A stretch of 64,000 bases of DNA, taken from positions 2,219,753 to 2,283,752 of the forward strand of contig OY969814.1 in the NCBI GenBank assembly GCA_963703345.1, in the 5' to 3' direction. Source of the DNA: an uncultured Chloroflexia bacterium (GTDB lineage Bacteria; Chloroflexota; Dehalococcoidia; DSTF01; JALHUB01). Positions within the stretch are counted from its first letter, which is position 1, and each line of letters starts with the position of its first letter. Under the pieces are notes generated by a model. The model ran no database searches, was not told the origin of the DNA, and saw only the letters and a list, made by a program, of their open reading frames with translations. A program made the translations under genes and the position numbers. This document shows, piece by piece, positions 21,830-44,695 of this stretch.

Positions 21830-21905
21830 GCGGGAATAGCTCAGTTGGTAGAGCATCTGCTTCCCAAGCAGAGGGTCGCGGGTTCGAGTCCCGTTTCCCG
21901 CTCCA
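21830..21905 (+). tRNA. tRNA-Gly(CCC)
   Basis: GCGGGAA/TTCCCGC acceptor, GCTC/GAGC D arm, TCTGC-TTCCCAA-GCAGA anticodon arm, GGTTCGAGTCC T loop, encoded CCA. Confidence 0.98.
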
Positions 21906-21932
21906 ACGTTTTTCCAGGTTTCATTAGATATG

Positions 21933-21957
21933 AAGCCGGGCATTTCGCCCGGCTTTT
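21933..21957 (+). terminator. intrinsic terminator after tRNA
   Basis: AAGCCGGGC-ATTTC-GCCCGGCTT followed by T's. Confidence 0.7.
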
Positions 21958-22191
21958 CTCGCCCCTCGGAATGGCCGGTTGTCGCGACCATCTGCTTTCT
22001 GGGCAGAGGGTTTGCGCTCCTCTGCCAGCTTCGGCGGTCTTGGTCTGCCACTCGCCGCTCTCCCAAATACGGATGGAGTATTGGCACGCCATAGCCCTTG
22101 CCCTCACGGCAGCTACCCGCCGGCCTCCGTCAAGACCCGCAGCGAGCCGTCGCATGGTCTCAGTGCCACCGTTTCCTTCCCCAGCGACACA

Positions 22192-22220
22192 TTGACAATC
22201 GCCATCCCGCCAATTAGTCT
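22192..22220 (+). promoter_or_regulatory. sigma70 promoter, probably giving a leaderless druA-like mRNA
   Basis: TTGACA-17-TAGTCT, ATG 7 bp downstream, no SD. Confidence 0.6.
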
Positions 22221-22227
22221 GTGACCG

Positions 22228-23421
22228 ATGCACAATCGCTCTGGTGAGCTCGCCGGGGCGAACTCGAACGCAGCAACTCAAGCTAGTCTCGTCGATCCGG
22301 CGAAGCTCAAACGACAAATTGTTGCCTCTCTCAGGGCGCAGGGATTTCGCATCTGTGGCGGCGAAATCCTGCCCCCGCGCGATCTCGACAAAGCCAAGAT
22401 ACGCGAGCTTCACACCACCGCGGTCTTTCATCGAATCGAGGTTTCCAGAAGAGGACTCGTAGGCCAAGAACCCCGCCTGCTTAGGCGGTTCGCTTCGGGG
22501 ACCAACGTGGACCCGGCAAGCGTTAGGCCGCGCCTCGTCGAAGTGGAGCCGGATTCTGAGGACGAGCTGCTTTTCAGGTATGCTGCTTTGCACTGGAGTA
22601 TCCCTGTCTCTTCCGGATATGGAAGGAGGATCCGATTTCTGGTTGTCAACGAACAGAACCAGAGTCTCATCGGGCTCTTCGGACTGGGCGACCCAGTGTT
22701 CAGTCTCGCCGCCCGCGACGGATGGGTCGGGTGGGACAAAGAGTCGAGGCGCGAGAGGCTCCGCAACGTCATGGATGCTTTCGTGCTGGGTGCTGTCCCG
22801 CCCTACGCGAGTCTATTGTGCGGGAAGCTCGTTGCTATGCTCGTTTGCAGCTCAGAGGTGAGGCGGGCCTTCGAACGCAAATACGGTGGGGCAGAATCCT
22901 TCATAAGCCGCCGACCATCAGACGGTCGGCTCGCCCTTGTGACTACAACCTCAGCGCTGGGCAGGTCTTCACTCTACAGCCGTATCAAGTACTGCGATCG
23001 CGTACTGTACGAGAGTGCCGGTTATACCAGGGGCTCCGGCGAGTTTCACTTTGCCAACGGGCTCTATTCCGCTCTGACCAGCTATGCTCGTCTTCATTGT
23101 CAGCCAAGCGCGAAACATCCTGCATGGGGGATTGGATTCCGTAATCGGCGCGAGGTCGTGAGGAAAGCATTGAGGGAGCTCGGGTTGTCAGCCGAATGGG
23201 TCTACCACGGGGTTCGTCGGGAAGTGTTCGTCGTTCCACTGGCCCAAAACACAAGAGAGTTTCTTCGGGGGGAGCACTCCGAGCTGCTATGGTCTGAACA
23301 ATCAGCCGACGACCTGTTTAAGTGGTTCCGCGAACGGTGGCTGCTGCCCCGTGCCAGTCGCAACTGCTCGTACCGAGATTTCGACCCGCATTCATACGCA
23401 ATATGGAACAACGCGACCTAG
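22228..23421 (+). CDS. DUF4338 / Druantia DruA-like protein
   Basis: WSIPVSSGYGRRIRFLV, LGDPVFSL.ARD.W.GW, GAVPPY..LL.GKLVA, TTSALGRSSLY.R, GYT.GSG.FH. Confidence 0.8.
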   Translation: MHNRSGELAGANSNAATQASLVDPAKLKRQIVASLRAQGFRICGGEILPPRDLDKAKIRELHTTAVFHRIEVSRRGLVGQEPRLLRRFASGTNVDPASVRPRLVEVEPDSEDELLFRYAALHWSIPVSSGYGRRIRFLVVNEQNQSLIGLFGLGDPVFSLAARDGWVGWDKESRRERLRNVMDAFVLGAVPPYASLLCGKLVAMLVCSSEVRRAFERKYGGAESFISRRPSDGRLALVTTTSALGRSSLYSRIKYCDRVLYESAGYTRGSGEFHFANGLYSALTSYARLHCQPSAKHPAWGIGFRNRREVVRKALRELGLSAEWVYHGVRREVFVVPLAQNTREFLRGEHSELLWSEQSADDLFKWFRERWLLPRASRNCSYRDFDPHSYAIWNNAT

Positions 23422-23479
23422 GGATTCGATCTCCAAAACAGGGAAGCGCGAGCATGGATGACCAGCTTTCGCGAGAGAG

Positions 23480-24631
23480 ATGAACGAATCTGAGACTCCG
23501 TTCGCTGACCTGCCCGAGGCCCTGCTTGACGAGATGCTCTCCCAAACAGAGCGGGTCGCCGAAGGCCTGTTGGGGACTTTCAGATCGGTCAACACGCAGC
23601 GGGCAGCTATGCGCGATGCCCTCAAGAGGCTCAACCTTGTCGACAATGAATCGTCTCTGGGTTATCCTCCTCTGCCGACGACCTGCGCGGTCAACGGCTC
23701 CTACGCTATAGAGAGGCTTCTTACCACCGATCTGGTGGCCTGTGCTGCCGTAGCAATCGAGGGTCTGACGCCGCCTTCAGAACAGCGGCATTGGGAGCAG
23801 CCTCGTCACCTCTCGGTCATTCAATCCGAAGTGCATCACGCCGAGACAGCTACCGTCCTTAGAGCTCTGATGCTGGGTCTTGAGTTGACGCTCGCGACAA
23901 GGGCTCCTCATGATGTTGTCATGCTCGACGCCACCCTCACCCTTCCGGTCATCTACTTCAACCAGGCCCTCCACGCTGCGGCTGGCGCGCCGGAGCTTGA
24001 GATATCGAGCGCTTTCCGCCAGCAGGCGGTCGATTTCCTGCGGTGCTACGCCGCGATTCTTCAATCGGAACGTTCCGACCGGGACTTCGTTGGCCTGCCG
24101 AAGTACTCGACGAGGCGCGAGGTTGGCCGACAAGCCGGATGGTCGGACCAACATGACGACAGGGGCCTACTTACACTCATTCTTGATCCTGGGGAGTTCA
24201 CTAGGCCGCTTTCCCTTGAGCAGCCAGCGCAGCCCTGGCATCTAGGTACGGGGACGCTCCCCCCCGATGTACGTGCAGATGCGGAACGCCTGGCTACGGA
24301 GATCGCGGGCCGCCTGGAGCAAGTTCGGATATTTTACTACAAGCCCCACCGATGGTTGCCTGCCGTTAGGGTGGAAGTGCCTTCAAATGTTGCTGAAAAC
24401 CAACACCGCCTGGCTAGGGTGGTCCAAGGAATAAAGCATCAGTGTGCGGCGGCCGGGATGATGGAGCCCTACCCCTTGTACATGGCGGACCGCATGGTAA
24501 AGGCCGTGGCGCGAGCGTTGCCGGCCTTCAGACAGGTGACGACGCAGCGGATTTCCGAGCAGTACGAAGGCGAGATCGCTGAAGTCTTCTTCGGCTTGCA
24601 CGGCTATAGGTCAGAGTCAGGAGTTCAGTAG
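23480..24631 (+). CDS. NurA-domain nuclease
   Basis: AV(N)GS, E..LA, VMLDATL, GLPK, EPYPLYMADRMVK; coupled to HerA. Confidence 0.8.
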   Translation: MNESETPFADLPEALLDEMLSQTERVAEGLLGTFRSVNTQRAAMRDALKRLNLVDNESSLGYPPLPTTCAVNGSYAIERLLTTDLVACAAVAIEGLTPPSEQRHWEQPRHLSVIQSEVHHAETATVLRALMLGLELTLATRAPHDVVMLDATLTLPVIYFNQALHAAAGAPELEISSAFRQQAVDFLRCYAAILQSERSDRDFVGLPKYSTRREVGRQAGWSDQHDDRGLLTLILDPGEFTRPLSLEQPAQPWHLGTGTLPPDVRADAERLATEIAGRLEQVRIFYYKPHRWLPAVRVEVPSNVAENQHRLARVVQGIKHQCAAAGMMEPYPLYMADRMVKAVARALPAFRQVTTQRISEQYEGEIAEVFFGLHGYRSESGVQ

Positions 24632-24633
24632 TG

Positions 24634-26439
24634 ATGGACACCGGTTCTATGGGCCGAAGCATCGACAAACTCATCGATGACTCGGAGCGCCTTGGAGTCG
24701 TCGGCTCGCCTTCATCGACCGCCGAGCTTGCCATGGACGTCCTGGGTGCCGCTGTCAACAGGAAACTCGTCGGGGAGTTGGCTCTTTTCCGTTTCCTCCA
24801 GGACTCTGCCAGGCACTATGCACTCGGCCAGATTACGGAGGTAAAGCTGCGGAATATCTGGCACGAAGATCCAACGATGCGGAGCCTCATCAGGCAACGC
24901 GGGCGCGTCAACGCTGTGAGCGAGCGCCAAGACACGCACCTCGCTCAGATGATTGTGAGCGCCGTGTTCAAAGACGGCGCCAGCTCCGCGACCTATGAGC
25001 CAAGCATAATGGGAACGGTACCCGCGACAGGTACGACGATTCATGTGGTAACAGACCCTATCCTGGAGGAGATTCTACGACCTTACCGCAGGCAGATCTT
25101 TTACCTTGGTCAGGTGTATGGTTCGAAGCCCAAACTGCCTCTATGGTTCAAGCACTTCGACCGAGGACCAGACGGCGCCGGAGAAGCCTATCATCTCGGC
25201 ATTTTTGGCAAGACCGGTTCGGGCAAGTCGGTCCTGGCGAAGATGATTCTGCTCGCCTACGCCCGCTATCCTCAGATGGCTCTTCTCGTAATCGATCCGC
25301 AGGGCGAGTTTGCGCGCGATATCGGTGGTGGGCACACAACGGGTGAATTCCCCTTGCCGTTAGGAGATCTCGTCAGCTCCCGAGGGAAGCCGGTCCGTGT
25401 TCTCACCGTAAAAAACCTTGTCCTCGATAGATGGGAGCTTTTCCGCCGAATTCTCTATGAGTCCCTTTTCTTTGAGCGCTTGACGATTCCGCGGAGCGAG
25501 AACCGAGAACTGGCGTGTGACATCCTTTCGGAGAAGTTGCAGAAAGCCGGGGTGAAGCTCGCTGAGCTTTGGAATCGAACTTCATTCGACCGCGCGTGGA
25601 CTTTGCTTGGTGACCCCGCTGTGCAACGCAATTTCTATCGAACAGACGCGTCTCGCGCCCGCTTCGACGCCGCTCTGCACGAGGCAGATGCTGACGAGTT
25701 CTACAAGGATTACTGGCGCCCGGTGGCAGAGCTATTCCGCGCCGACAGATCCGGAGCCACAACAGTTGAGAGTGCGCTTGGCTCCTTGTTAGATCCGCAG
25801 AAGGATCAGCGTCCGACTCTGGTAGTGGACCTGTCACGCGAACAGGCTTCCGGGATGTTCTGGAATGATACAATCCAGTCCCTAGTCATCAAGCGGCTTC
25901 TGGACGGTCTAGAGGTCACGGCAGAGCACTTCTTCAAGGGCGGAGAAAGCCTGAATGCGTTAGTAGTGATAGACGAAGCACACCGTCTCGCTCCACGAGA
26001 GTTGCCGACAGACGATGAGGCCGCGAAAGCGGTCCGAGGAGTTCTCATTGACGCCGCACGAACAACGAGGAAGTATGGGTTAGGTTGGCTGTTCATCAGC
26101 CAAACCCTCTCGAGTTTGCACACCGAGATACTCCAGCAGCTCCGCATCATGTTCTTCGGCTTCGGCCTCGGCCTCGGCCAGGAGTATCAGTCTCTCAGAC
26201 AGTTGGTGGGCTCGTCCGGCCCCGCCCTTGACCTGTATCAGCTATTCAGAGATCCTCATTCAGCGTTTGACGCAAAGAGTCGCCAGTACTCTTTTATGAC
26301 CATCGGCCCGGTGAGCCCATTGTCATTCTCCGGGAGCCCCCTTTTCTTCAACGCCTTCAACACGGTGGAGGCGTTCGTAGAAGCCAACGAGATGGAAACG
26401 AATCCAAGGCAGGACAGCGGGCAAGAACCTAGAATCTAG
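24634..26439 (+). CDS. HerA-like (DUF87) ATPase/helicase
   Basis: HAS-barrel-like N-term, HLGIFGKTGSGKS, IDPQGEF, VIDEAHRLAP, RKYGLG..ISQ. Confidence 0.9.
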   Translation: MDTGSMGRSIDKLIDDSERLGVVGSPSSTAELAMDVLGAAVNRKLVGELALFRFLQDSARHYALGQITEVKLRNIWHEDPTMRSLIRQRGRVNAVSERQDTHLAQMIVSAVFKDGASSATYEPSIMGTVPATGTTIHVVTDPILEEILRPYRRQIFYLGQVYGSKPKLPLWFKHFDRGPDGAGEAYHLGIFGKTGSGKSVLAKMILLAYARYPQMALLVIDPQGEFARDIGGGHTTGEFPLPLGDLVSSRGKPVRVLTVKNLVLDRWELFRRILYESLFFERLTIPRSENRELACDILSEKLQKAGVKLAELWNRTSFDRAWTLLGDPAVQRNFYRTDASRARFDAALHEADADEFYKDYWRPVAELFRADRSGATTVESALGSLLDPQKDQRPTLVVDLSREQASGMFWNDTIQSLVIKRLLDGLEVTAEHFFKGGESLNALVVIDEAHRLAPRELPTDDEAAKAVRGVLIDAARTTRKYGLGWLFISQTLSSLHTEILQQLRIMFFGFGLGLGQEYQSLRQLVGSSGPALDLYQLFRDPHSAFDAKSRQYSFMTIGPVSPLSFSGSPLFFNAFNTVEAFVEANEMETNPRQDSGQEPRI

Positions 26440-27061
26440 CAGTTTCTGACCCGTGCTCACCGGGGCTTTCTTCCAATGACGCGAGGATCTTGTCGACCAT
26501 GGGCATCAAGTCTCGCCGCAGTTCGTCCCTCGTTCCTTCGTTCTCGATGACGGTCAGCGACAGGTCACCCCGAGCTCGTAGGGCGTCTAAATCGTCATCG
26601 CCATACCATTTCTCCATGTCAACTCGGGAGATGTATCTTGCCCGGTCAACCTGCCCACGCGTGAGGTTGCGTTGCCATGCAATGTCCCACGATGATGAGA
26701 GGTATAGGACAAGCGATTGGTCAATGATCCGTTTCGGAAGACAATCGAACAGGGGTGCGTAGACGTGGCGCGCAACCTCCGCTATCACCAGATCGGCCCG
26801 CTCGGTTTCCAGCTTGGCGTGCAGCCAGTTATCCAACTCCTGCCAGATGGAGTCGTCAGTGATCTCGAATCCCCCGTCTTCAGTGGGGCGATGGCGCCTG
26901 AACGAGGGGTCTTTCTGGACCAAGACCCAGAGTACCGGGAAGTCGTGCATGACTGCTATCTCCCCTTCGAAGCCCCGCAGACGCAGCTCATCGGTCAGGA
27001 TCCTTGTCGCGAGAGACTTGCCAGTGCAGGGACGACCAACGACGAAGACAAACCGTGCCAA
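26429..27061 (-). CDS. P-loop nucleoside/nucleotide kinase-like protein
   Basis: VVGRPCTGKS, LYL....IAWQRNLTR lid motif, VIENEG; TTG start after AAGGAG (alternative GTG 27097). Confidence 0.72.
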   Translation of the reverse strand: MARFVFVVGRPCTGKSLATRILTDELRLRGFEGEIAVMHDFPVLWVLVQKDPSFRRHRPTEDGGFEITDDSIWQELDNWLHAKLETERADLVIAEVARHVYAPLFDCLPKRIIDQSLVLYLSSSWDIAWQRNLTRGQVDRARYISRVDMEKWYGDDDLDALRARGDLSLTVIENEGTRDELRRDLMPMVDKILASLEESPGEHGSETARF

Positions 27062-27115
27062 AGCCCCTCTCCTTGAACTGGCACTGACGAGCGTCACAAC
27101 GCCACGTCAACTCGG

Positions 27116-27973
27116 TTACGACCGCCCCCGCCTTCCCCACACGGCTATGGAGAGTGCTGCAAGCGACAAAACGAGCGAAAAAAAGGATACCGCTAGCGCG
27201 GTCATTGGCCAACCACCCAGTATATCGCCTTCCGGTTTGATAACTGGGGCTATTGCGACGACAGCTAGGGCCGCTATGACCGCGGCCAGCACCGCCACCA
27301 CAATCGTGATGAAGGTGATCGACTGCGCTCTGAGTTCGTCACTTTGCCTTGTCACGCGCGCTCCGAGTTCGTCACTTTGCCTTGTCACCCTCTCGACGTT
27401 CTCGACCATCTCGCGGGGAAAACTCCGCAGCCGATGAAGATCAAAATCCCCCAGAGAATCTCGGCCCTGCTTCATCGGTATGCTGATTCCTTTCCTGAAC
27501 GGGGTGGTCTTGACGAAATCCATCGCGAAAAGCTCTTTGCGATAATCGAGAACTACTTCGCGATCGGCCAGATTATATACTGGTGCGAACAGTTCTCCTG
27601 ACCATCCCGGGTCAACCTGAAGAGCTCCCACCCATAGCAAGCCCTCATAAACGCTCGACACTTTCAGAGCCCATCGTGCTATCAAGAATCTTGGCAGGTT
27701 CAACTTCTCGTAAGTACTGACAATCGCCATTTGATAAGGAGCGATTTTAAGGGGAGCGTTTTCGGCTATTACCACATCGACTCCACCCAGACGAGCGTGA
27801 CTTCCCAGCGTTAGGTTGTATCTTGCTGCTCGCAGGTGTTCCTGGTGGAATGGATCGATGAGCGGCGGGACTACTTTGGTGGAGTAGTATTCGATCTCGT
27901 CAGATAGGAGCACCGCTCCGTGCCATCCCCCCCGGCTCTTTCGCTGGTCTTCTTCAAGGATGTCTTCCTGCAT
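27116..27973 (-). CDS. dCTP deaminase/dUTPase-fold domain (catalytic residues lost) + coiled coil + two C-terminal TM helices
   Basis: LLSDEI, IDPF, AARYNLTLG, STYEKLNLP, VDPGWSG...YN; hydrophobic ITFITIVVAVLAAVIAALAVV and MTALAVSFFSLVLSLAALSIAVW. Confidence 0.82.
   Translation of the reverse strand: MQEDILEEDQRKSRGGWHGAVLLSDEIEYYSTKVVPPLIDPFHQEHLRAARYNLTLGSHARLGGVDVVIAENAPLKIAPYQMAIVSTYEKLNLPRFLIARWALKVSSVYEGLLWVGALQVDPGWSGELFAPVYNLADREVVLDYRKELFAMDFVKTTPFRKGISIPMKQGRDSLGDFDLHRLRSFPREMVENVERVTRQSDELGARVTRQSDELRAQSITFITIVVAVLAAVIAALAVVAIAPVIKPEGDILGGWPMTALAVSFFSLVLSLAALSIAVWGRRGRS
27332..27388 (-). repeat. 33-bp-period coding duplication (RVTRQSDEL x2) in linker
   Basis: GAGTTCGTCACTTTGCCTTGTCAC at 27332 and 27365. 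Confidence 0.9.
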
Positions 27974-28327
27974 GGATCCCTCCAGTAAGCGCGGTTCAGA
28001 GTAACGGACCCAACCCGAGGTTCATATTCGATGAGTCCGCGACAAAGCGCTTGACCCCGACGCGAAAACCAGTTGACGGCCTCCTCCCAAGGAGCCGTCC
28101 AGCCTCTTCCGGAGGCAAACGATGCCCGCTCAATCTTGGGCCGGTGCTGCGGTGCGATGCGGTTGCGATATCGACAGACCGTTGAAAGAGGGCTCCAGGC
28201 TACGTGCGCCGGGCGCCGCGATGGTAGGTGAGAACCCCTCTCGTTCTCTCAACACGGTGTGGGCAAGTCTATGCCGCCTGTCGACGATTTCCACTGCAGG
28301 GCCGACCGATTGCGAAGACAAAGCGTT

Positions 28328-29272
28328 TCAAACTGGGGCCGGAACGCTATTCGGCGGACTCATCTCCTTTGCGGGCATTGACTTTATCGCTTCGCCACAA
28401 CCGCCATCGCAGCCGTTGTCCGGTACGTGGTTTGCCTCAAAGCAGCTAGGGCACACCATTTGGCCATTGCGAGTGTAGACGCGGCGCATAAGATTCGCCA
28501 GGGTCAGCTCTTCGCCAATCAGCCTATCCAATAGTCCGTCCTCTACCATTGCCCTGCCCAACTTATTGATTCCCTCTGCTCGAATGCCTACTTTCCGAAG
28601 GATCGAGCAGCTCCACGACACCACATCGGCCAACTCCTCGATCATGTGAGCGCGATGACGATCGATCTCTTTGCTACCTTCTGCGGGAGCATCGCAGAGT
28701 ATGCGTATATCTTCCGCAACCTCGGCGACCTCCTCTAGGTAATGAAACCCGATGTCGCTGTCTAGACGCAGCTGGTCATCCTTGTCGAAGATCTCCTTGA
28801 AGAGGCCCTCAAGGTCACAAAGGGTCTTGGGCACGTGCCCCTTGGATTTCTTTCTATTTCTGGTCAACTGGTCAGCGACGTGTTCTTTGTCAAGAGGGCC
28901 TCTTAGTGACGCGCATTGGCAGCCAGGGCTCAGGCAATGGGGACAGATCAGCGGATATTTGTAGAACGCAATCGTCCCAAGGCCGTCAAGCGCTCCCAAA
29001 TGCGGATCGGTAATAGGCTCGAATGAGGCTGGAACCTGCTCCTTCTGGCCGAGCTTCCTTACAAAGATAGTCAGCCAACACCAGGCTTGCGCTAAGCCTA
29101 CTAGTTGGGCCGAAAGGACCTCCTCGCGAATCCCTTCTCCTACCGCTGCCGCATGCTCTGCGACCTTCAACCAGATTCGCTCCAGGGATCGCTTTCCGGC
29201 CAACTCCCCGTAGAGTGACCAAAGCCCATCTGCCCAGGCATCAAGGTTGTCGTCGTCAGGAGCAGTAACCAT
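28328..29272 (-). CDS. tandem MazG-like nucleotide pyrophosphohydrolase with Cys clusters
   Basis: Second domain LEEVAEVAE..IEELADVVSW; first degenerate VAEHAAAVGE..GLAQAWCW; CPHC...CQC and CPSC...C...C. Confidence 0.78.
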   Translation of the reverse strand: MVTAPDDDNLDAWADGLWSLYGELAGKRSLERIWLKVAEHAAAVGEGIREEVLSAQLVGLAQAWCWLTIFVRKLGQKEQVPASFEPITDPHLGALDGLGTIAFYKYPLICPHCLSPGCQCASLRGPLDKEHVADQLTRNRKKSKGHVPKTLCDLEGLFKEIFDKDDQLRLDSDIGFHYLEEVAEVAEDIRILCDAPAEGSKEIDRHRAHMIEELADVVSWSCSILRKVGIRAEGINKLGRAMVEDGLLDRLIGEELTLANLMRRVYTRNGQMVCPSCFEANHVPDNGCDGGCGEAIKSMPAKEMSPPNSVPAPV

Positions 29273-30347
29273 AGGAGAATACTCCTCTTCTCTTGCCCGC
29301 TACCTCAGGGGCGTGCGTCGTCCGTCGATCAACCAACTCTTCATTTGTGGGACCCGTTCCGATAAACACCACCGGGACCCCTAGTTCCCCCTCAATTTCT
29401 CGAGCAAATCGGCGCGCACTTTCGGTGAGGTTCGCAAAATCAGTCTGCCCCTTGTTCTCGAAATCAATGTAGTCCACCCCGTGAACGGCAATAGCCGTAG
29501 GTCGATTCACCGCCGCCGCCCGTTTCACAAGGGCGAGGTCGAAAGTCGCCACTCGCCTGGGGTTCTTGGTGACAGTAGTCAACTCCATTATTGGATAGGG
29601 ATACCCGCTCAACTCCCTCAGTCGATCCCAGGAGATCTCGTCACCGATCTCGCCGGAATTGCCGGCGACCCTTATTGGGAAAGTGCGGACCGCCATGATT
29701 ACATCGTCGACGGCCAACGGACTCAATCCAACCTCGCCTAGAAATGACGCTGCCGTAGTGTCGCGGCTCGTGCAATATGGGAACTGAGCCGTGTGGTAAA
29801 GCGAGAGGCCATAACCTTGAGTGCCTTCTACTAAGGTTTTCGCCCCGCGATCGACCGCACTGTTGACTTCGTCGGCGACGTCCGTGAGAAATAGACGCAG
29901 CTCGGGCACGTCTTTAGCGAGTCTGAAAGATTCGTCGCGAAGAGCCCTGCGAGCGACGGCTGAACCTGTCCCGGACAACGTCGAGCCGCATCTCTCCCTG
30001 AGAAGGGTGCGTGTCTCAGCAGCCCGGTCAGTCTCCTCAATGATGCCCGTGTTTCGATCGATGCCAATTCTGTCCGGGCGCACGCCGAACGTCGCTAACT
30101 CATCAAAGAACACGCCAACATCCAGCAAACCGCCAGCAGCAATCAATAGCCGGGTCCTGGAGTTTACAAGTCCGGCCGGGATGCTCCGCAGTTGAATTCT
30201 CTTGCCGCCCATGTCAACGGTGTGGCCGGAGTTGGGTCCGCCGCAGCGCACTACGTATTCGACATCATCAGTCATACTCAGGTGGGAGCAGATTTTGCCC
30301 TTGCCCTCTCCTCCGTATTGAGCGCCCACGATCACCGTCACGCCCAT
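29256..30347 (-). CDS. divergent short-type adenylosuccinate synthetase homolog (PurA/PurZ-like)
   Basis: GAQYGGEGKGK, GPNSGHTV, EGTQG..LS, PYCTSRD, RTFPIRVAGNSG, TTVTKNPRRV, IGTGP. Confidence 0.9.
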   Translation of the reverse strand: MGVTVIVGAQYGGEGKGKICSHLSMTDDVEYVVRCGGPNSGHTVDMGGKRIQLRSIPAGLVNSRTRLLIAAGGLLDVGVFFDELATFGVRPDRIGIDRNTGIIEETDRAAETRTLLRERCGSTLSGTGSAVARRALRDESFRLAKDVPELRLFLTDVADEVNSAVDRGAKTLVEGTQGYGLSLYHTAQFPYCTSRDTTAASFLGEVGLSPLAVDDVIMAVRTFPIRVAGNSGEIGDEISWDRLRELSGYPYPIMELTTVTKNPRRVATFDLALVKRAAAVNRPTAIAVHGVDYIDFENKGQTDFANLTESARRFAREIEGELGVPVVFIGTGPTNEELVDRRTTHAPEVAGKRRGVFSYGYCS

Positions 30348-31921
30348 TGCAGACCTCCTGAGACACTCGTCTCTTTGGCTCGCGGCATTCGAACGCCTTC
30401 ATGATGATTCGGCGCTGTCGGCACGATTAGATAGCCTTCATCGTCGTTGCCCAGCGCTTCGTAGTCACCCGCAAGATAGAAATAACCGACGATGGCCGAG
30501 GTTATTGCATCCAGTTCATCATGACTAAGCGACTGATCAGCAAGCGGCCCCGTTATCCCAAAGTCGAGGAGCGACATCCTAAGCTCCTCTCTCCCTGTAC
30601 TCTTCCGCGGTATTCGAAGAATGTCTTGGGCGGCCCCGGGGAAGCTCTCGATGACTTCAAGACCCTGTTGCCGCAATCTGTTCGCCAGCGTGATGCCCCG
30701 ATTCGTCAAAGCGATCATTGTCGGCAATTGACACCAGAACACGGAGATCCCGCGCTGCTTGAGCTCCAGCTCCGAGTGCCGGTAGATCTTCCGAATGCCC
30801 CCGTCCGTGGGTGCAGGCAAATTGAGCGGAGAGTCAATAGATACTACGTCGGGTTTTGCCTGCAGCGTCAGTTCCACGAGGTCATCGTCCGTTCGCACCA
30901 CTTTGGTCGTTGCGTGTCTGCCTTTGAGCAGCGCCCAGCCCGTCGGCCGCTTTGGTGATGCGGCGAGATCAATGCCGACTATCCCGCGCTCTGTTCCAGT
31001 CTTTCGGAGAAGCGACAGTATGCGGTGCTTCCGGGGAGGGGTGACAGCTCGTCCGGAAGCCAACGGGGCGAGGGCCATACGGAGTGCCTCTTCGACTTGG
31101 GTGGCCGTCATGTCCATGCCGACAATTGGCCCGGGTGGCTCACTTGGGCTGCTGCTCAGCAAACGGCGACTTGCCTCCGAGTATGCGAAGTTTAGCAGTT
31201 GAACAAGGTTGACGGTATCCCACATGTTGTAGCGCACTAGTTGTTCGAAAGCGGACTGCTGGCCACGCTTATACGCGAACCAAAGGGCGGCGGCCTGCCT
31301 TCCTGTAATGGCCTGAGATTCCGCATCTCTGGTGAGACCGAGCGCCTGCTCGATGCGCTTGAGGCCTCCCCGTAGCTCGAGGCGGGCGAGAAGAAAACGT
31401 AGATCCACATGAACCAAGGGTAGATCAAGCTTCGGGTAGGCGGACCGCAAGAAGGGGATGTCGAACTGGCTCCCATTGAATGTCACCAGGATCCCGAAAC
31501 GACGCACTGCGTCAGGGAAGCGCTCCAAGTTGACGCCCTGGACGAAGCATTCGTAGCCTTCCTTGCTGTACAGACCTACCATGGTCAGTTCGTCGTAATA
31601 GCGACTGAGCCCAGTCGTCTCGACGTCAAGGAAAGCAATGCGGTCAGAGAACTCGCGAACTAGGCGCCATCGTTCGCCAGATGGGAACAGCGGAGCAAAG
31701 TAGTCCAAACGACGGTGATCGAGAGCCTGCTTTGACTCGCGGAGCCCCGACAGCAGTCGGCGCGAAGGCCCGACCAGGCGCTCGGTCGAAATCGGGGCGG
31801 GATTCAGCGGACGGTCAACCCAAGCGAAGTAGTCCGACCAGGAATGGATTCCCTGGGACCACAGTCGCTGCTCGGTTCGCCTGCCGACTCCGTGTAGGTG
31901 GCTGAAGGTATTGGTGAGCAT
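30338..31921 (-). CDS. HhH + YprB-like RNase_H_2 (DEDD) exonuclease fused to DUF429 (RNase H-fold) domain
   Basis: HLHGVGRRTE, AFLDVETTGL, TFNGSQFDIPFL, HVDL, GGLK.IE, YN.WD; C-term GIDLAAS, IDSPL, IESFPG, DELDA. Confidence 0.82.
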   Translation of the reverse strand: MLTNTFSHLHGVGRRTEQRLWSQGIHSWSDYFAWVDRPLNPAPISTERLVGPSRRLLSGLRESKQALDHRRLDYFAPLFPSGERWRLVREFSDRIAFLDVETTGLSRYYDELTMVGLYSKEGYECFVQGVNLERFPDAVRRFGILVTFNGSQFDIPFLRSAYPKLDLPLVHVDLRFLLARLELRGGLKRIEQALGLTRDAESQAITGRQAAALWFAYKRGQQSAFEQLVRYNMWDTVNLVQLLNFAYSEASRRLLSSSPSEPPGPIVGMDMTATQVEEALRMALAPLASGRAVTPPRKHRILSLLRKTGTERGIVGIDLAASPKRPTGWALLKGRHATTKVVRTDDDLVELTLQAKPDVVSIDSPLNLPAPTDGGIRKIYRHSELELKQRGISVFWCQLPTMIALTNRGITLANRLRQQGLEVIESFPGAAQDILRIPRKSTGREELRMSLLDFGITGPLADQSLSHDELDAITSAIVGYFYLAGDYEALGNDDEGYLIVPTAPNHHEGVRMPRAKETSVSGGLQWA

Positions 31922-32139
31922 CCTGCGACGGTTATTCTACGCGAGGCCCGACTCGCGTGCTAGCCTTCGCCGACGACATACGCGTGCGGGGGCCCTCTTA
32001 CACAACCACGTCGTGTGCTGCCGCCGGGCATTCTGTACTCTACCATCATGCAAGGAGTCATCATTACCATTCTGTCCGCCAGGAATTTGCCAGTCACGTC
32101 CCGTTACCCTACCATTGGCGGTTGAAAGGTTGACGTTGG

Positions 32140-33618
32140 ATGACAGATTCCGACCCTTCAACGCATTGGCCGAGCCACATCTCGCCTCTTGAGTTCCGGT
32201 ACCTGCCTTCTGGGGACCCGAGAAGCGAACGAGTCAGGCAGTATCTCACTGAAGAAGCCTATGTCCGCTATCTCACCAGGGTCGAGTCCGAGCTGGCAAG
32301 GGCACTTGGTAGGCTGGGGGTATGCCCTCAGGAAGTTGCGGATTCTATTTCGAGGGCAGCTGATGCTGTCAGCGCCGTGGAAGTGTACCACGAAGAGCGC
32401 ACTACAGGTCATCAGATCCCGGCCCTGGTAAACTGCATACGTCGAAGGGTTCCCCCCGATGCGGCGAATTTCGTTCACCTTTTTGCCACGTCGTCTGACA
32501 TCATGGACACCGCGAACGCCTTACGCTACAAAGAATTCGCCAGGGACGTTCTGCTCGTTGACCTCATTCGGCTGGAGCGAACGCTTATCGAACTAGCCGA
32601 GATGCACGCTAGCACAAGACAGGTGGGCAGAACTCATGGGATGTTTGCTGAACCCTTGACATTTGGCTTCGCGCTAGCGTTCTACGTTGATCGGCTCGGC
32701 AATCGAATCCGCAGCATTAATGACGCTCGGAACAACCTACGAGGCAAACTCTCCGGCGCAGTGGGGGCCTACAATTCGATGTCGCTTGCGTTCCCGGACG
32801 ACCCTACGGTTCTGGAATCCGACGTTCTGGGCCACCTGGGCTTGCAGCCCTCAGACACTCGCATTTCAACGCAGATTGTTCAACCTGAATACTTGACAGA
32901 CTTCGTTTATTCGGTCGTGACGTGTCATTCCGTGATCGCGAATCTCGCCGATGACATGAGACACTTACACAGAAGCGAAATCGCGGAGGTGCGAGAACGT
33001 AGTGGCGAGGGCCGGGTGGGCTCTTCAACAATGCCTCGCAAGATCAACCCCCAGTCCTTCGAGACCGTAAAGAGCATGTGGAAGGTGACGATGCCGCGCC
33101 TCACTACCGTGTTGCTCGATCAGATATCCGAGCATCAGCGAGACTTGACGAACTCGGCCTCGATGCGCTTCATGCCCGAGATTCTGGCGGCTGTCGATTT
33201 CTCAGTTTGTCTTCTTGGCGACGCAATGCAGCGTCTGGAAGTAGGGGTTGACAGCATGAAGTCGAACCTCGCCTCTGCCTCGCGGGAGACCGTAGCAGAG
33301 CCGCTCTACATCTTGCTCGCGCTCAACGGCTGCCCGAACGGTTTCGCGAAAGCGCGCGACCTGGTAGGCCAATCTATCGCTACTGGTGTGCCGGTGTTAG
33401 ACCTTTGCGAGGTTGATGAAGATGTGCGTCCGATCCTCGCCCGACTGCGCCAGGAACATGTTGCTATCCTTCAGGACCCGAGCCTCTATGTGGGAGACGC
33501 GGTGAGGAGAGGCAACGAAACGTGCGCCCTCTGGCGCGCCCAAGTCAACCGGCTAGAGGCCGCATTGCAGCGAGAAAGAGCGGAGCGTTCGGCTTCGTCT
33601 CTTGGGCCGAGGCTGTGA
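32140..33618 (+). CDS. purB: adenylosuccinate lyase homolog (accessory PurB)
   Basis: ISPLEFRY, HLFATSSD, GRTHG..AEP.TFG, SGAVG, STQI, GSSTMPRKINP, QRDLTNSASMR. Confidence 0.88.
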   Translation: MTDSDPSTHWPSHISPLEFRYLPSGDPRSERVRQYLTEEAYVRYLTRVESELARALGRLGVCPQEVADSISRAADAVSAVEVYHEERTTGHQIPALVNCIRRRVPPDAANFVHLFATSSDIMDTANALRYKEFARDVLLVDLIRLERTLIELAEMHASTRQVGRTHGMFAEPLTFGFALAFYVDRLGNRIRSINDARNNLRGKLSGAVGAYNSMSLAFPDDPTVLESDVLGHLGLQPSDTRISTQIVQPEYLTDFVYSVVTCHSVIANLADDMRHLHRSEIAEVRERSGEGRVGSSTMPRKINPQSFETVKSMWKVTMPRLTTVLLDQISEHQRDLTNSASMRFMPEILAAVDFSVCLLGDAMQRLEVGVDSMKSNLASASRETVAEPLYILLALNGCPNGFAKARDLVGQSIATGVPVLDLCEVDEDVRPILARLRQEHVAILQDPSLYVGDAVRRGNETCALWRAQVNRLEAALQRERAERSASSLGPRL

Positions 33619-33699
33619 CGCGTGACCCTATGCTTCGGAGACAAATACTCTACTGGACTCGTCGGCCGTGTGCTGGCAGCGGAGCATTGCGCGCTGTTT

Positions 33700-34317
33700 T
33701 TAGGATGACGTTTTGCGGCCGCTCGTGGTGCCCGTTCTCTCGTCGGCAAGAATCTTCGCCCACTGCTCTTTGGACTCTTTCTCGCCGTAAGGCCACTCCG
33801 CGAAGGTGAGAACCAGGACCACTATCGTGTAAACCATCCCGAGAGCGATGACGCTTACAAAACCCTCCCTGGGATTGGGCTTAAGGTCGAAGGCTACCTG
33901 TACCAGAAATGGCAGCGCACCCGCTGCGATTCCTAGAAGGAGGAAGACCATAGCTTGCGCTCCTGAATATGCACGTATGGCTACGCGTCGCCGGAGCTTG
34001 CGGTATATCTCCCATCGCTGTTCCCATTGTGACTGGCCAGTCGCAGAGAGATAAGCAGTGATCACTCGTAATTGGACCTTCAGTGCCTGGTGCAGGCAAA
34101 ACAGCGCTAGAAGAACAAGCAAGAGCAGAAGAGAGATACCGTAGGTAATCCATCCAACATCGCTGGCTGTCGCATTAGCCTTCTCCACTATCCAGCCGGC
34201 GCCGACGCCGAAAATCGTAACTGCCAGGATGGTTATGAGAAGCCTCTGATTCACTATTTGATTGACCTCGCCGTGAAGCTTCGTGGCATCGAGTTTCTCA
34301 CCTTCTTCTGTCTGCAC
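33700..34317 (-). CDS. four-TM membrane protein
   Basis: GTG start after AGGAGG; four hydrophobic helices; overlaps the Nudix stop. Confidence 0.75.
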   Translation of the reverse strand: MQTEEGEKLDATKLHGEVNQIVNQRLLITILAVTIFGVGAGWIVEKANATASDVGWITYGISLLLLLVLLALFCLHQALKVQLRVITAYLSATGQSQWEQRWEIYRKLRRRVAIRAYSGAQAMVFLLLGIAAGALPFLVQVAFDLKPNPREGFVSVIALGMVYTIVVLVLTFAEWPYGEKESKEQWAKILADERTGTTSGRKTSS

Positions 34318-35290
34318 GACGCGGCCTCCTGTGTGTCGAGTCCTGGCCGGAATACTTCCCCATTTCTCTCTCAAGGGCAGCAAGTGATGTCGCATTACCG
34401 AAACAGCGGGACATCGCAAGCAAGAGGCGATATCTCGACGTCGGGTGCCAGCGGTAACCGCGTCGTGTCTGCACAATTAGACGTGCCACGTTGGTCGGCA
34501 GAAGAGGGACGAATCGCAGACGTTTCAACTCTGCTCTACTACGGTCCCTTCGTTTTCTCCACGACGTCATAAGATCGCCAGACGAGAAGGCCGTCTTTAG
34601 ATAGGCTACGATTGCAGGATTGGCTATCGCCGATTCGATGACCACGGCGAGGAGCGCACAATCGCTTGGTTCGGCACCTGCAGGAAAGAGTTCCTCGTTT
34701 ACGCCTCGCGCTGCCGCTGCGTGAAATGCTGCATCCCCATAGGCCAAATCCTCAGGCGAAAGTTGCTCTTCAAAGGAGGCACACCAATGGAGTGGGTGGT
34801 ATTCTACCCACTCGCTCCTCTGGGCAAGCACTAGCATTTCATCCGCGGTCTCCACGATGCCGTGAATGCTGACAATGTTTGGAGTTGAGGCGGTTTTGGA
34901 TTCGACGAGGGTCCGGATAAGCTCAAGCCGCGAGCCTATCCCCCCGTTCGACCTGAGATACTCGTGAATCGGTTGCACCTCGGACCATTCGGTGGCTTGG
35001 ACACTGAGACGAATCTTCTCCCCCTGAGACGTGTAGGTTCGAAGCGACAGTTTGCGTTCGCTAATCTCGTCACGGTGATGTTCAAGCCATGAATCTCTGA
35101 GTGCACGCCAACTATCCGAGATACCTCCTACTCTGCGTTGAATTCTGACACGCGTGTCTCGAATTTCCCACCCTGGCGATAGGCTTGGCGCTCTAGTCCC
35201 TTCGATTGCTCCATCCACGATCAGCTGGGGCATAGGAATTTGGGTCGCCCTGCCGCCGCTCGGGACTGCGTAGAATTCCTGAAAATCCAT
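34298..35290 (-). CDS. divergent Nudix-fold protein
   Basis: IHGIVETAD..LVLAQRS..V.YHP..W.ASFEE, degenerate Nudix box AAARGVNEEL. Confidence 0.68.
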   Translation of the reverse strand: MDFQEFYAVPSGGRATQIPMPQLIVDGAIEGTRAPSLSPGWEIRDTRVRIQRRVGGISDSWRALRDSWLEHHRDEISERKLSLRTYTSQGEKIRLSVQATEWSEVQPIHEYLRSNGGIGSRLELIRTLVESKTASTPNIVSIHGIVETADEMLVLAQRSEWVEYHPLHWCASFEEQLSPEDLAYGDAAFHAAAARGVNEELFPAGAEPSDCALLAVVIESAIANPAIVAYLKTAFSSGDLMTSWRKRRDRSRAELKRLRFVPLLPTNVARLIVQTRRGYRWHPTSRYRLLLAMSRCFGNATSLAALEREMGKYSGQDSTHRRPRRADRRR

Positions 35291-35296
35291 CGCAGT

Positions 35297-36667
35297 TCAG
35301 GAGAGATTCGTCGGTCGAATGCTATGAGCATCCATGCGTCGTGCCGCCTTTGTGATTGTGTTGATTACGCCTGCCCGATATTGCCCTCTAGTCCATTGGG
35401 CCAAGGCCTGATATCCGCCGACTAGTGCGGGAACGCTCTGTCCTACTTCATTATGCGAAATCATCGGAGCGACGGCCGCAGCCAACAGAGCCCAGGCCGG
35501 GATTGACCGAGGAGTAGAATTCGTCAATTTCTTCTCCCAAGCTCGCTCCAGCGCTGTCGCGTGCTCGCGAATTGCGTCCTCTAGTTGCTCTTCATGCCTG
35601 TCATCCTCGTGCCATCGTGCCAACGCTTCTTGATAGCGCTGGCGCGTAAGATCCGTTTCCTGGAACACTAGCGTCACTTTAGGCCACTCCAACTCCAGCG
35701 GATCCCATTTGAACAATCCCGCGACTCCCTTGAGCCAAAGACGATTCGAGGAAGACTCCCTCTGATTCTCATCGAATGGGTACAAGGCGTCGCAGGGCCT
35801 ATCCAGGAAGAGGCTTACCGGCACTGAATCTGGCAGAGCCCCGACCGAAGCACCATCGGGAGCCAGCGTACGTTGCACGGCCGCATTCCACGCGTGAATA
35901 ACCGTGTTCCTTATAGCTCTATATGTTGGGGCATCAAGTCCATCCCTGTGCTCCTCAAGACAGGTCATGACCGCCGACCGAATCCCACGATCTGGCACAT
36001 TGTCGTCGATGAACTTTTTCGTGCTATGGACCACCGTCCAGCTACTCACCCCTAGTTCTTCCGGCCCGCGAGCGTACAACTCTTCCAAAATGTCGTACAT
36101 TGTAACCGGGGCCCGAGTCTTTGCTCGCTTCGTCGCCGAGGTTTCGTCCCGGGAGAAGTACTCAATGGCCCTTAGCGGTCCCGACAACCTCGGGTCCAGG
36201 TCGCCAATACCTCTTGGATACGGCTCAACAAGCATCCTCTCAAGGTCAATACTCCCCGACGACAGCAAGAGGTCGGCAAATCGTGTTATGGGTTGAGCCG
36301 TTCCAAGCGAGGATGAGATCCAGCCAGGCTTGAGCGTCCGCCTCAGTCCCCAGGTCGCGATCCCAAAGTTCCCCAAGGCTCGACCGGTCTTGTCGGGATT
36401 TGCCACGAGTTCGAAAGGTGAGAATTGCGAATCCCGTGCCAAGCGCGCCAGCTCCTCGGGTAGGGCGTCATCCACGAAAAGTGCTTGCACAACGGGACTG
36501 TCGAACAGATGCACATCATTGAGCACGAGCGTGTTCCCGAAGAGCATATGGAGCCTAACGATTCTCTGGGCATTCTCCTTAAGTTGCTGAACGTTCGGTT
36601 GCGGAAGTCCATGCCAAGATTGGGGACGGAAATACTCCCCATCGAACCACTGAGCATAGCGACGCAT
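35297..36667 (-). CDS. hypothetical protein (456 aa)
   Basis: Long ORF, GGAGAAGG RBS, 6 bp from the Nudix gene. Confidence 0.75.
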   Translation of the reverse strand: MRRYAQWFDGEYFRPQSWHGLPQPNVQQLKENAQRIVRLHMLFGNTLVLNDVHLFDSPVVQALFVDDALPEELARLARDSQFSPFELVANPDKTGRALGNFGIATWGLRRTLKPGWISSSLGTAQPITRFADLLLSSGSIDLERMLVEPYPRGIGDLDPRLSGPLRAIEYFSRDETSATKRAKTRAPVTMYDILEELYARGPEELGVSSWTVVHSTKKFIDDNVPDRGIRSAVMTCLEEHRDGLDAPTYRAIRNTVIHAWNAAVQRTLAPDGASVGALPDSVPVSLFLDRPCDALYPFDENQRESSSNRLWLKGVAGLFKWDPLELEWPKVTLVFQETDLTRQRYQEALARWHEDDRHEEQLEDAIREHATALERAWEKKLTNSTPRSIPAWALLAAAVAPMISHNEVGQSVPALVGGYQALAQWTRGQYRAGVINTITKAARRMDAHSIRPTNLS

Positions 36668-36789
36668 CGACCTTCTCCCAACGGATCATCGAGCCGCGTT
36701 CGGGTGGATTTTCGTTGTCCACCTGGACAAGCCCTCAATGACACTACCTGAGACGGCCCGAGCGGCCGGCCCAGACGCCTGGCAGTAGC

Positions 36790-37524
36790 TCAACCCCGCA
36801 CTCCAGAAAGAGATGCGATGATTTCCTCTTGTCCCCAATTAGGATCGATAGTCGGGACAATTCTGCCACTCTCGCCTTTTACGTACGGGCCCAAAGTCTT
36901 CCTGTGCTCCTCTGGGCAGAAAACCACCGCCACGTTGTCGAGAAGGAAACCGAAGTCCCCGCGGTGTCGCCACTCGCGCTCCCACCAAAACTCCTTCTTC
37001 GAGTTGCGCCACGTACCCATGCCCTCGACGAACGGAGCGATACCAGCGATAGGCTGGTCTGAGAATCGCTCACCTTCTGCGGCTTGTCTGACCAATTCCC
37101 AGACGTTCTCCGTTAGCCATTCGTGACCGCCGGTCATATCGACGTACCAAACAGGATTCACGCCCAGCTCGCGCGCCTTTCGCTTGGTGAATGCCAGTCC
37201 GAAGGGTTCGAGCTGATTGCGTCAACCCTTGATCGGACACACGAAGCTCCATGCTTGCTCCAGAGGTGCCTCAGTGAAACACACTACCCGCTGGGACTTC
37301 AACGCCGTTTGGTGGTCTTTCGGACGTAGCTTCCCTTGGCGGAGAACCTTCTCTAGCTGAATGACGGCCGCGCCCATGGGAGTACGTGCGAGCAGCGTCT
37401 GATTAGCAAGAATGCTCTGTAGGTTCTCTAGCGCCGCCTTGCCGTTCCCTTGCCGTGTCCAGTGAATAACGAAGGTGGACAGATCGGTGCGCCGGCGCAA
37501 CAATTCCTCGATCTCCCATTCCAT
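36790..37524 (-). pseudogene. AbiGi-like protein interrupted by in-frame TGA
   Basis: HWTR..VCFTEAPL..IKG*RNQLEPFGLAF.K..GVNPVWY..WEREWR; both track ORFs share one frame, TGA at 37222-37224. Confidence 0.72.
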
Positions 37525-37976
37525 GGATCCGCTCGTCTCCTAATGGTTGCCCGGGATGTCGGTATTCTCCCCTCTCGAAAGCAGATCGTCAAGACCCGAT
37601 GTTGATCGCTTTGAGGCTTGCCGCGCGCGCGGCGTTTGGTTCGCCGATATCGTTCTCGACCGCAATGAAATACTTGGAGATATGTCCTAGAGCTGGCCAT
37701 CCCAAATGAGTGGTGGTGGATGGGTACGAATGGGTTGACGAAGGCAAGGGGTATCGGCGTTCTTGATACCGACCGATGTCGTCAACGGCTACGGAATCAG
37801 GCGGCCCCACGACCACCCGCTTGCAGAGTGCACGACGCGCGCGTCGTGTCGCTAAAAGAGCCACCAGCCGTGGCGCCTCCGACGCCCTGCCGACTCTTGG
37901 GCAGCTCGAACGTTGGGTTCTTGCGGCGGTCTGAGTGAATGGACATGGCCCAATTCTCCTATATACTATTTCCAAG

Positions 37977-41448: not shown

Positions 41449-41564
41449 AGTCAGCTTCTGGCGAATAAACAGAAAGGTACGATGGATTGCCCTCTATCAC
41501 ACTACGCCTAGCCCGCTGGCGTCAGGGGCGGAGTGCAAAAAGCGCATGGACTAGCGCTCTGCGC

Positions 41565-44693: not shown

Positions 44694-44695
44694 TC

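What the first reader, a model, noticed from the sequence alone, without database searches (positions are those of the whole stretch)
27116..27973. dCTP-deaminase fold stripped of catalytic residues and fused to two TM helices
Seen: E. coli Dcd RSSLAR aligns to KVSSVY (S111->V, R115->Y) and DPGWSGCIVLEFYN to DPGWSGELFAPVYN (E138->P), while the nucleotide-binding DPGWSG is intact. A coiled-coil linker with a fresh 33-bp duplication and two TM helices follow. Established: S111, R115 and E138 are needed for deamination; the fold is a trimer binding dNTPs at subunit interfaces. Inference: a dNTP-gated membrane effector, analogous to sensor-TM effectors of CBASS/Pycsar.
Basis: partly seen in the sequence, partly recalled or inferred. 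Interest (0 to 1): 0.8.

Follow-up and report, generated by a model that had tools for sequence, protein, structure and literature searches.

The report
Dead dUTPase-fold membrane sensor beside PurZ
A conserved family of bacterial and archaeal membrane proteins keeps the nucleotide-binding pocket of a dUTPase-type enzyme but has lost its catalytic residues and almost always sits beside a gene resembling the phage Z-base synthase, so it likely senses a home-made Z-type nucleotide and would damage the cell membrane to stop a phage.

Summary
ORF 27116-27973(-) encodes a dCTP-deaminase/dUTPase fold, a long helix and two hydrophobic helices. The substitutions are family-wide: Y for R115 and P for E138 in 263 of 263 homologues, V/I for S111 in 256. 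The dUTPase Mg-Asp, motif IV Gln and motif V are also gone; the deoxyribose-binding Asp and aromatic stay. The nearest solved structures are archaeal dUTPases that already lack E138, and the 33-bp duplication is private to this copy. The decisive context is new: 64 of 68 genomic loci carry an extra adenylosuccinate-synthetase homologue with the PurZ-type Ser/Gly at Asp13 (59 of 59), plus nucleotide kinases and either an exonuclease-DUF429 or an RlmJ-like methyltransferase; PurB is rare (2 of 68). The cassette is patchy, here inside a tRNA-Gly integrated element beside DruA, and often near other defence genes. Best reading (0.55): dGMP released during infection is turned into a Z-type nucleotide that gates this membrane effector. 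It would work like Kongming or Metis II but is a member of neither. Ligand, oligomer, toxicity and defence are untested; I found no description of it in the searchable literature.

The parts
27116..27973 (-). Catalytically altered dCTP-deaminase/dUTPase-fold protein with helical stalk and two predicted TM helices (285 aa); proposed sensor-effector
27494..27925 (-). dUTPase/Dcd jelly-roll domain (about aa 17-160)
27647..27664 (-). Altered motif II, aa 104-109 (Dcd R110-R115): V105 and invariant Y109
27581..27613 (-). Motif III D121 to P131: retained Asp and aromatic W124, invariant Pro at the Dcd E138 position
27325..27390 (-). 33-bp (11-codon) tandem duplication in the helical stalk; private to this copy
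27245..27319 (-). Predicted TM helix 1 (about aa 219-243)
27140..27211 (-). Predicted TM helix 2 (about aa 255-278), followed by a basic tail
   Evidence: sequence
29256..30347 (-). PurZ0-like adenylosuccinate-synthetase homologue (Gly at Asp13, PIRV, GTP-type Asp); proposed signal synthase; core partner
30338..31921 (-). RNase_H_2 (exonuclease-like) fused to DUF429; frequent partner (34 of 68 loci)
28328..29272 (-). MazG-like pyrophosphohydrolase (weak Pfam match, E 0.0045); same slot in 3 of 80 metagenome loci
26429..27097 (-). P-loop nucleotide-kinase-like ORF; weak match (E 0.0012) to the cassette kinase profile
32140..33618 (+). Extra adenylosuccinate lyase (PurB), divergent from the operon; optional partner (2 of 68 and 3 of 80 loci)
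21875..57666 (.). Integrated element between the tRNA-Gly 3' end and its 31-bp direct repeat; also carries DruA, NurA-HerA, a Dsr1-like protein and a tyrosine integrase

Best explanation
This protein keeps the deoxyribose-binding residues of the dUTPase/dCTP-deaminase fold, lacks its catalytic residues, ends in two predicted membrane helices, and is likely the ligand-gated killing effector of an undescribed anti-phage cassette whose PurZ0-like partner would make the activating Z-type (2-aminoadenine) deoxynucleotide. Steps: (1, inferred) infection raises dGMP, normally scarce, through host-DNA breakdown, helped where present by the cassette exonuclease, MazG-like enzyme or deoxynucleoside kinase; (2, inferred from active-site residues) the PurZ0-like enzyme condenses dGMP with aspartate using GTP; (3, inferred) cassette or host PurB and kinases give dZMP/dZDP/dZTP, possibly methylated where the RlmJ-like enzyme is present; (4, inferred from the fold) the nucleotide binds at subunit interfaces of a homotrimer and is not turned over; (5, inferred by analogy) the signal passes along the stalk helix to the TM helices, which disturb the membrane and abort infection. 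Shown here: residue pattern, architecture, gene coupling, patchy mobile distribution. The exact ligand (succinyl precursor, mono-, di- or triphosphate, methylated form) is open.
For: Catalytic loss is fixed across 263 homologues: Y109 263/263, P131 263/263, V/I105 256/263; motif I Asp only 15/263; motif IV Gln 1/263; motif V pattern 0/263; retained D121 261/263 and aromatic 124 263/263; new invariants R100, W101, W114, D152 (motif roles from passages of PMC1802613). 245 of 263 have >=2 hydrophobic segments after the domain. PurA-like gene within 10 kb in 64 of 68 genome loci, the four misses at contig ends; 26 of 31 metagenome contigs >=5 kb; 39 of 54 full-length pairs adjacent on one strand. 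Partner has Ser (47) or Gly (12) at Asp13 in 59 of 59 sequences covering the site and PurZ-type Ile in PIRV 62/62, while four host housekeeping copies have Asp; Ser there marks PurZ. Host has its own PurA, Dcd and PurB elsewhere. Patchy: 6 of 301 class genomes at E<=1e-25, two of them distant types, 0 of 12 same-family genomes; none in viral contigs or phage records. Integrated element with DruA etc.. PADLOC E<=1e-40 hits in flanks: 17 of 175 proteins, 9 of 20 loci, versus 4 of 237 proteins, 4 of 20 control windows. The synthase also occurs with other partners (10 of 14 loci found from the synthase side lack this effector), the pattern of a signal enzyme with exchangeable effectors. Precedent: KomB, a dead house-cleaning pyrophosphatase used as dITP sensor; MisC, a TM effector gated by m6dAMP.
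Against: No binding, activity, toxicity or phage data. The PurZ-like activity is inferred; the partner is below both NCBIfam cut-offs (archaeal PurA 346.5/368, PurZ 212.7/300) and this window's copy has Gly, not Ser. dUTPase folds do get re-tuned to purine dNTPs beside PurZ0 (DutZ), and Arg at the motif II position survives in 139 of 263. At locus level the defence enrichment is modest (9/20 vs 4/20) and 11 of 20 loci had no hit; loci are not independent. Solo copies exist (L155, 12 kb, no synthase) and distant DCD-TM proteins occur without the synthase (L076, L077, L191). TM helices show few conserved polar residues. No fusion of this domain to another effector type was found (weak searches). 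The roles of the RlmJ-like methyltransferase and DUF7002 are unexplained.
Confidence: 0.55

Rival explanations
1. Membrane-anchored enzyme with re-built chemistry, like phage DutZ: it hydrolyses dATP/dGTP (or removes dZTP) to feed or balance the PurZ0-like pathway, and the cassette marks or poisons DNA with Z bases.
For: DutZ accompanies all 98 PurZ0 phage genomes and hydrolyses dATP and dGTP (PMC12884076 sections 20 and 24). Motif III Asp retained 261/263; new invariant R100, D152, Y109 could be a new active site. Nearest structures are dUTPases.
Against: Motif I Asp, motif II Ser, motif IV Gln and motif V are all lost, and motif V loss alone cost >=1e5-fold in kcat in one dUTPase. A pool enzyme needs no TM helices. 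This window already has a MazG-like gene for dGMP supply. No Z-selective polymerase among recurrent neighbours.
Confidence: 0.2
2. Sensor-TM effector, but of canonical pool imbalance (dTTP, dUTP, dGMP) with the PurZ-like enzyme acting as a drain or threshold setter rather than signal maker.
For: Dcd structures bind dTTP and dUTP (PDB titles). Distant DCD-TM proteins pair with guanylate or thymidylate kinases, UDG or methylases without any PurZ-like gene. Solo copies exist.
Against: Near-obligate coupling of this subfamily to the S/G13 synthase (64 of 68) and pocket residues remodelled to large invariant W/Y/P suggest a non-canonical ligand (inference).
Confidence: 0.12
3. Secondary-metabolite cassette: synthase, kinase, methyltransferase make a 2-aminoadenine nucleoside/nucleotide antimetabolite, and the DCD-TM protein is its binding, export or self-protection component.
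For: PurA/PurB homologues do occur in a deazapurine-nucleoside-type cluster on Rhizobium plasmids (L186). RlmJ-like methyltransferase in 31 of 68 loci.
Against: That cluster's PurA keeps Asp13 and has no DCD-TM. Two TM helices is small for an exporter; neighbours are RM, DRT4, Shedu, Hma, integrases rather than biosynthetic genes.
Confidence: 0.08
4. Ordinary or decaying dCTP deaminase.
For: Automatic names in JGI records say 'deoxycytidine triphosphate deaminase'.
Against: Invariant replacements across 263 proteins and several phyla; host has a canonical Dcd elsewhere; far below TIGR02274 cut-off.
Confidence: 0.02

Closest known systems
Kongming (KomA-KomB-KomC; bioRxiv 10.1101/2024.12.20.629578, passages read)
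   Same: Base-modifying enzyme acts on a dNMP, kinases phosphorylate it, and a catalytically dead house-cleaning pyrophosphatase fold is the proposed sensor; variants carry kinases or SAM methyltransferases.
   Different: Synthase is PurZ0-like, not adenosine deaminase; sensor is dUTPase fold, not HAM1; effector is TM helices fused in cis, not SIR2; predicted signal Z-type, not dITP.
Type II Metis (MisB-MisC; bioRxiv 10.1101/2025.11.05.686725, passages read)
   Same: TM effector gated by a modified deoxy-mononucleotide linked to host-DNA breakdown; a nucleotidase as safety valve (YfbR-like HD gene beside the S. medicae locus L185).
   Different: MisC has three TM helices and no annotated domain; its ligand m6dAMP comes from pre-methylated DNA, no synthase is needed; no HAD MisB found here.
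Phage Z-genome pathway, PurZ0/PurZ with DutZ or MazZ (PMC12884076 sections 19, 20, 24; PMC8342488 passages)
   Same: Ser/Gly at Asp13, PIRV motif, a dUTPase-fold neighbour, MazG-like or HD neighbours; four archaeal S/G sequences basal to PurZ were noted there.
   Different: Cellular, not viral (0 hits in IMG/VR scan and phage records for the DCD-TM); dUTPase fold is dead and membrane-bound; no DpoZ; adds exonuclease-DUF429 or RlmJ-like methyltransferase.
Thermococcales dUTPase P45 (PDB 8y1w, 9ln0, 9ln3) and dCTP deaminase Dcd (1xs1)
   Same: Same jelly-roll fold (Foldseek E 7e-13, TM 0.87 on target), motif III.
   Different: Motifs I, II, IV, V altered or absent; stalk and two TM helices added.
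CBASS / Pycsar sensor-TM effectors (recalled, not read here)
   Same: Nucleotide-binding domain joined to two TM helices.
   Different: No cyclase or cyclic-nucleotide-binding domain; PADLOC gives no match for this protein.

Membership tests
dCTP deaminase (Dcd) | Trimeric dUTPase-like jelly-roll fold | tested here: met
   Fold met; the trimer itself was not modelled
dCTP deaminase (Dcd) | Catalytic S111, R115, E138 (E138 mutants seen in PDB titles; S111/R115 roles recalled) | tested here: not met
   V/I, Y, P in 256, 263, 263 of 263
Trimeric dUTPase / DutZ | Motif III Asp and aromatic for deoxyribose | tested here: met
   D 261/263; W/Y/F 263/263
Trimeric dUTPase / DutZ | Motif I Asp, motif II Arg-Ser, motif IV Gln, motif V | tested here: not met
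   Asp 15/263; Arg 139/263 but Ser 0/263; Gln 1/263; motif V pattern 0/263
Trimeric dUTPase / DutZ | dNTP pyrophosphatase activity | not testable with these tools
   needs assay
Kongming | KomA adenosine deaminase, HAM1 KomB, SIR2 KomC | tested here: not met
   None among window ORFs or recurrent neighbour clusters scanned with Pfam
Kongming | Dead house-cleaning fold as sensor of a base-modified dNTP (works-like feature) | tested here: inconclusive
   Dead fold shown; binding untested
Type II Metis | MisB HAD phosphatase plus 3-TM MisC without annotated domain | tested here: not met
   No HAD among recurrent neighbours scanned; effector has a DCD domain and mostly 2 TM (165 of 263); no direct MisC sequence comparison was made
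CBASS / Pycsar | CD-NTase or PycC cyclase in the operon | tested here: not met
   No such hit in window or recurrent neighbours
PurZ0 (partner gene) | Ser (or Gly) at PurA Asp13; Ile in PIRV; GTP-type Asp (role recalled) | tested here: met
   59/59, 62/62, 62/62
PurZ0 (partner gene) | NCBIfam PurZ model cut-off | tested here: not met
   212.7 vs 300 bits; archaeal PurA model 346.5 vs 368
PurZ0 (partner gene) | dGMP + Asp + GTP -> dSMP activity | not testable with these tools
   needs assay

The most novel reading that the evidence does not exclude
Bacteria and archaea use the Z base, known so far as phage DNA camouflage, as an immune second messenger: a cellular PurZ0-like clade converts infection-released dGMP into a 2-aminoadenine nucleotide that gates exchangeable effectors, this dead dUTPase-TM protein being the first, DUF7002 and others the alternatives. 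Phage PurZ may then descend from, or be sensed by, this immune enzyme family.
Probability: 0.4. Interest if true: 0.92.

Novelty: new variant of a known kind. Interest (0 to 1): 0.76.

Why it matters
It would add a new signal chemistry (Z-type nucleotide), a new sensor fold (dUTPase/Dcd) and a new synthase class to nucleotide-signalling immunity, give a function to the cellular Ser/Gly13 'PurA' sequences that sit at the base of the PurZ tree, and bear on where phage Z-genome synthesis came from. It is directly testable with two or three genes, and cultured carriers exist (Rhodopseudomonas rhenobacensis L052, Bradyrhizobium ivorense L055, Sinorhizobium medicae plasmid L185).

Tried and rejected
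A second structural search (VIA wide) could not be run. PADLOC for the ORF itself: no match. Viral contigs: 14 pattern hits, none a relative; phage records: none; plasmids: 2 weak hits. Searches for longer fused forms: none (weak). Domain tree: 4 of 22 branches supported, one row mis-cut and one duplicated; not used. Identity correlation between synthase and effector (rho 0.47, 0/999 permutations) is expected from joint inheritance and was not counted as co-evolution. Sequencing runs: no RNA holder listed. Earlier scan findings: nothing. Sequence search of the methyltransferase-like partner and DUF7002 against PDB found nothing; only the fold search placed the former with RlmJ. DarT-likeness of DUF7002 is my recall from a motif and was not confirmed. 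PurB as core component: rejected (2 of 68). Duplication as a family feature: rejected. Literature: ten full-text searches gave no description of this cassette; I judged most listed papers from title and abstract start only; two 2026 reviews had no PurZ or dUTPase mention in 'find' passes; PMC12697855 was irrelevant. Subscription papers and all supplements were not seen; the PurZ0 paper (ref. 12 of PMC12884076) or defence-candidate tables could list these loci.

Full report
Observation. The ORF at 27116-27973 on the minus strand encodes 285 aa. Pfam calls a dCTP-deaminase-like domain at aa 39-153. AlphaFold2 with 120 homologues gives pLDDT 90.9: a jelly roll, a continuous helix 185-240 and a second helix 255-282; hydropathy peaks start at 224 and 260. 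The 33-bp duplication is real (24 nt exact, 31 of 33) but absent from the two nearest homologues; stalk length varies across the family (10th-90th percentile 58-78 residues), so it is incidental.

Is it dead? The closest solved proteins are Thermococcales dUTPases, which have Met at E138, so the right test is the dUTPase motif set. Passages of PMC1802613 assign the Mg-Asp to motif I, phosphate contacts to motifs II and IV, deoxyribose stacking to motif III, and show motif V is essential. In 263 homologues (all proteins returned; 432 and 4966 hits existed, only the listed best were available): motif I Asp 15, motif II Arg 139 but Ser 0 (V/I 256), motif IV Gln 1, motif V pattern 0; motif III Asp 261 and aromatic 263; Y109, P131, R100, W101, W114, G116, N134, D152, F153 invariant. 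So both chemistries are lost while the sugar site is kept and the pocket is rebuilt under strong selection. 245 of 263 have two or more hydrophobic segments after the domain; most of the rest look truncated. That S111 and R115 are catalytic in Dcd is recalled; one search found no paper for it.

Gene context. A GTDB scan gave 68 loci from Dehalococcoidia, Acidobacteriota, Alphaproteobacteria, Clostridia, Deltaproteobacteria, WOR-3 and five archaeal records; two loci share a contig, so they are not all independent. 64 of 68 carry a PurA-like gene within 10 kb, and the four misses lie at contig ends; 50 of 80 metagenome loci, 26 of 31 of those >=5 kb. Other partners among the 68: small P-loop kinase 39, RNase_H_2-DUF429 34, an unannotated protein 31, deoxynucleoside kinase 12, DUF7002 7, PurB 2. 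The unannotated protein folds like the adenine-N6 methyltransferase RlmJ (E 3e-5, TM about 0.45). Nuclease and methyltransferase rarely co-occur (both 5, nuclease only 29, methyltransferase only 26, neither 8; lineage-confounded). This window's version has nuclease, synthase, MazG-like gene, effector, kinase and a divergent PurB.

The partner. All 59 sequences covering the site have Ser (47) or Gly (12) at PurA Asp13, all 62 have Ile in the PIRV motif and the Asp that aligns with the GTP-type Asp of archaeal PurA; four host housekeeping copies have Asp13. [quoted passage not shown] The protein falls below both NCBIfam cut-offs, so it is PurZ0-like, not a filed member. The host has separate canonical PurA, Dcd and PurB. 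Searching from the synthase side, 4 of 14 new loci carry the DCD-TM gene; the eight kinase-fused synthases lack it and five of them have DUF7002; plasmid and Chloroflexota examples agree. The effector needs the synthase; the synthase has other partners.

Defence setting. The cassette lies in a 35.8-kb element between tRNA-Gly and a 31-bp repeat of its 3' end, with lower GC, DruA, NurA-HerA, a Dsr1-like protein without scored sirtuin part, and an integrase. It is found in 6 of 301 class genomes (four true members including this one, two distant types) and 0 of 12 same-family genomes searched; not in viral contigs or phage records. PADLOC at E<=1e-40 hit 17 of 175 flanking proteins in 9 of 20 selected full-length Dehalococcoidia loci (type I and IIG RM, DRT4, Ppl, Hma, Shedu, an SspH-like ATPase; 2 of 6 hand-added ORFs also hit, in a locus already positive) versus 4 of 237 proteins in 4 of 20 control windows from this genome and class relatives (two lone methylases, a cysteine desulfurase, a partial Mad3). 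The enrichment is clear per protein, modest per locus, and 11 of 20 loci had none.

Mechanism. Most likely (0.55) a signal-and-effector pair. dGMP is scarce in healthy cells (own knowledge; phages supply it with MazZ) and would rise when DNA is degraded; the synthase would turn it into the succinyl precursor, PurB and kinases into dZMP to dZTP; the dead dUTPase fold would bind the product and drive its TM helices to disturb the membrane. Precedents read in passages: Kongming, where a dead HAM1 senses dITP, and type II Metis, where a TM protein senses m6dAMP. Every step after the gene anatomy is inferred, and the oligomer was not modelled. The main rival (0.2) is a DutZ-like pool enzyme; it fits the company but not the lost motifs or the membrane anchor. 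Counter-observations: a solo copy, distant DCD-TM proteins with guanylate or thymidylate kinase, methylase or UDG and no synthase, few conserved polar TM residues, unexplained methyltransferase and DUF7002.

Novelty. It works like Kongming and Metis II but fails their membership tests, and those of Dcd, dUTPase and CBASS/Pycsar. Ten literature searches and PADLOC gave no description; subscription papers and supplements were not seen. Verdict: real, widespread, a new variant of modified-nucleotide signalling with probably new signal chemistry; interest 0.76.

Noticed in passing
L228, L229, L230, L231, L239, L198, L188-L190: Kinase-fused Ser13 PurZ0-like synthase with DUF7002, often with an IrrE-like peptidase, YfbR-like HD protein, an unknown 452-aa protein or a Pua-metallophosphoesterase, without the DCD-TM gene: a sister cassette with a possible alternative effector.
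   Followed up: partly
L197:39-3998: Nucleoside-deoxyribosyltransferase fused to thymidylate kinase, then Ser13 synthase, then an AAA-ATPase protein; recalls the phage DmtZ-PurZ0 pairing in a cellular genome.
   Followed up: partly
L012:10849-11634 and 30 other loci: Unannotated protein family with RlmJ-like amino-methyltransferase fold (DPDN motif), nearly exclusive with the exonuclease-DUF429 partner.
   Followed up: partly
L076:3792-8968; L077:8939-10941; L191:4774-8483; L187:4484-6075: Distant DCD-TM proteins with altered catalytic motifs in other cassettes: guanylate-kinase fusion with DNA methylase and HD protein; thymidylate kinase; UDG with thymidylate-synthase-like and MazG-like genes (last two labels from my reading of the sequence); SAM methyltransferase.
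   Followed up: partly
L007, L012, L017, L019, L034, L052, L055: Two DCD-TM paralogues at one locus, often a longer 3-4-TM form facing the operon.
   Followed up: no
window 22228-26439: DruA followed by NurA and HerA without other Druantia genes.
   Followed up: no
window 33700-36667 (-): Three-gene run with no family match: 456-aa unknown, 330-aa protein that looks NUDIX-like by eye, 258-aa multi-TM protein; not found in the 68 related loci; possibly another defence cassette.
   Followed up: partly
window 36790-37524 (-): Two short ORFs (100 and 123 aa) that may be halves of one broken gene.
   Followed up: no
window 37935-41448 (+): 248-aa unknown plus 931-aa protein matching the non-sirtuin part of Dsr1.
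   Followed up: no
window 42114-46666: Tyrosine integrase, ParB-methylase and terminase-like ATPase inside the same integrated element.
   Followed up: no
window 17328-17365: A second copy of the 5' 38 bp of tRNA-Gly, suggesting another insertion to the left (17328-21830) carrying pilin-like and signal-peptidase-like ORFs.
   Followed up: no
L186:6375-14722: Rhizobium plasmid cluster with FolE, QueC/D/E, Asp13 PurA, PurB, IMP dehydrogenase and nitrile hydratase: looks like deazapurine-nucleoside biosynthesis.
   Followed up: no
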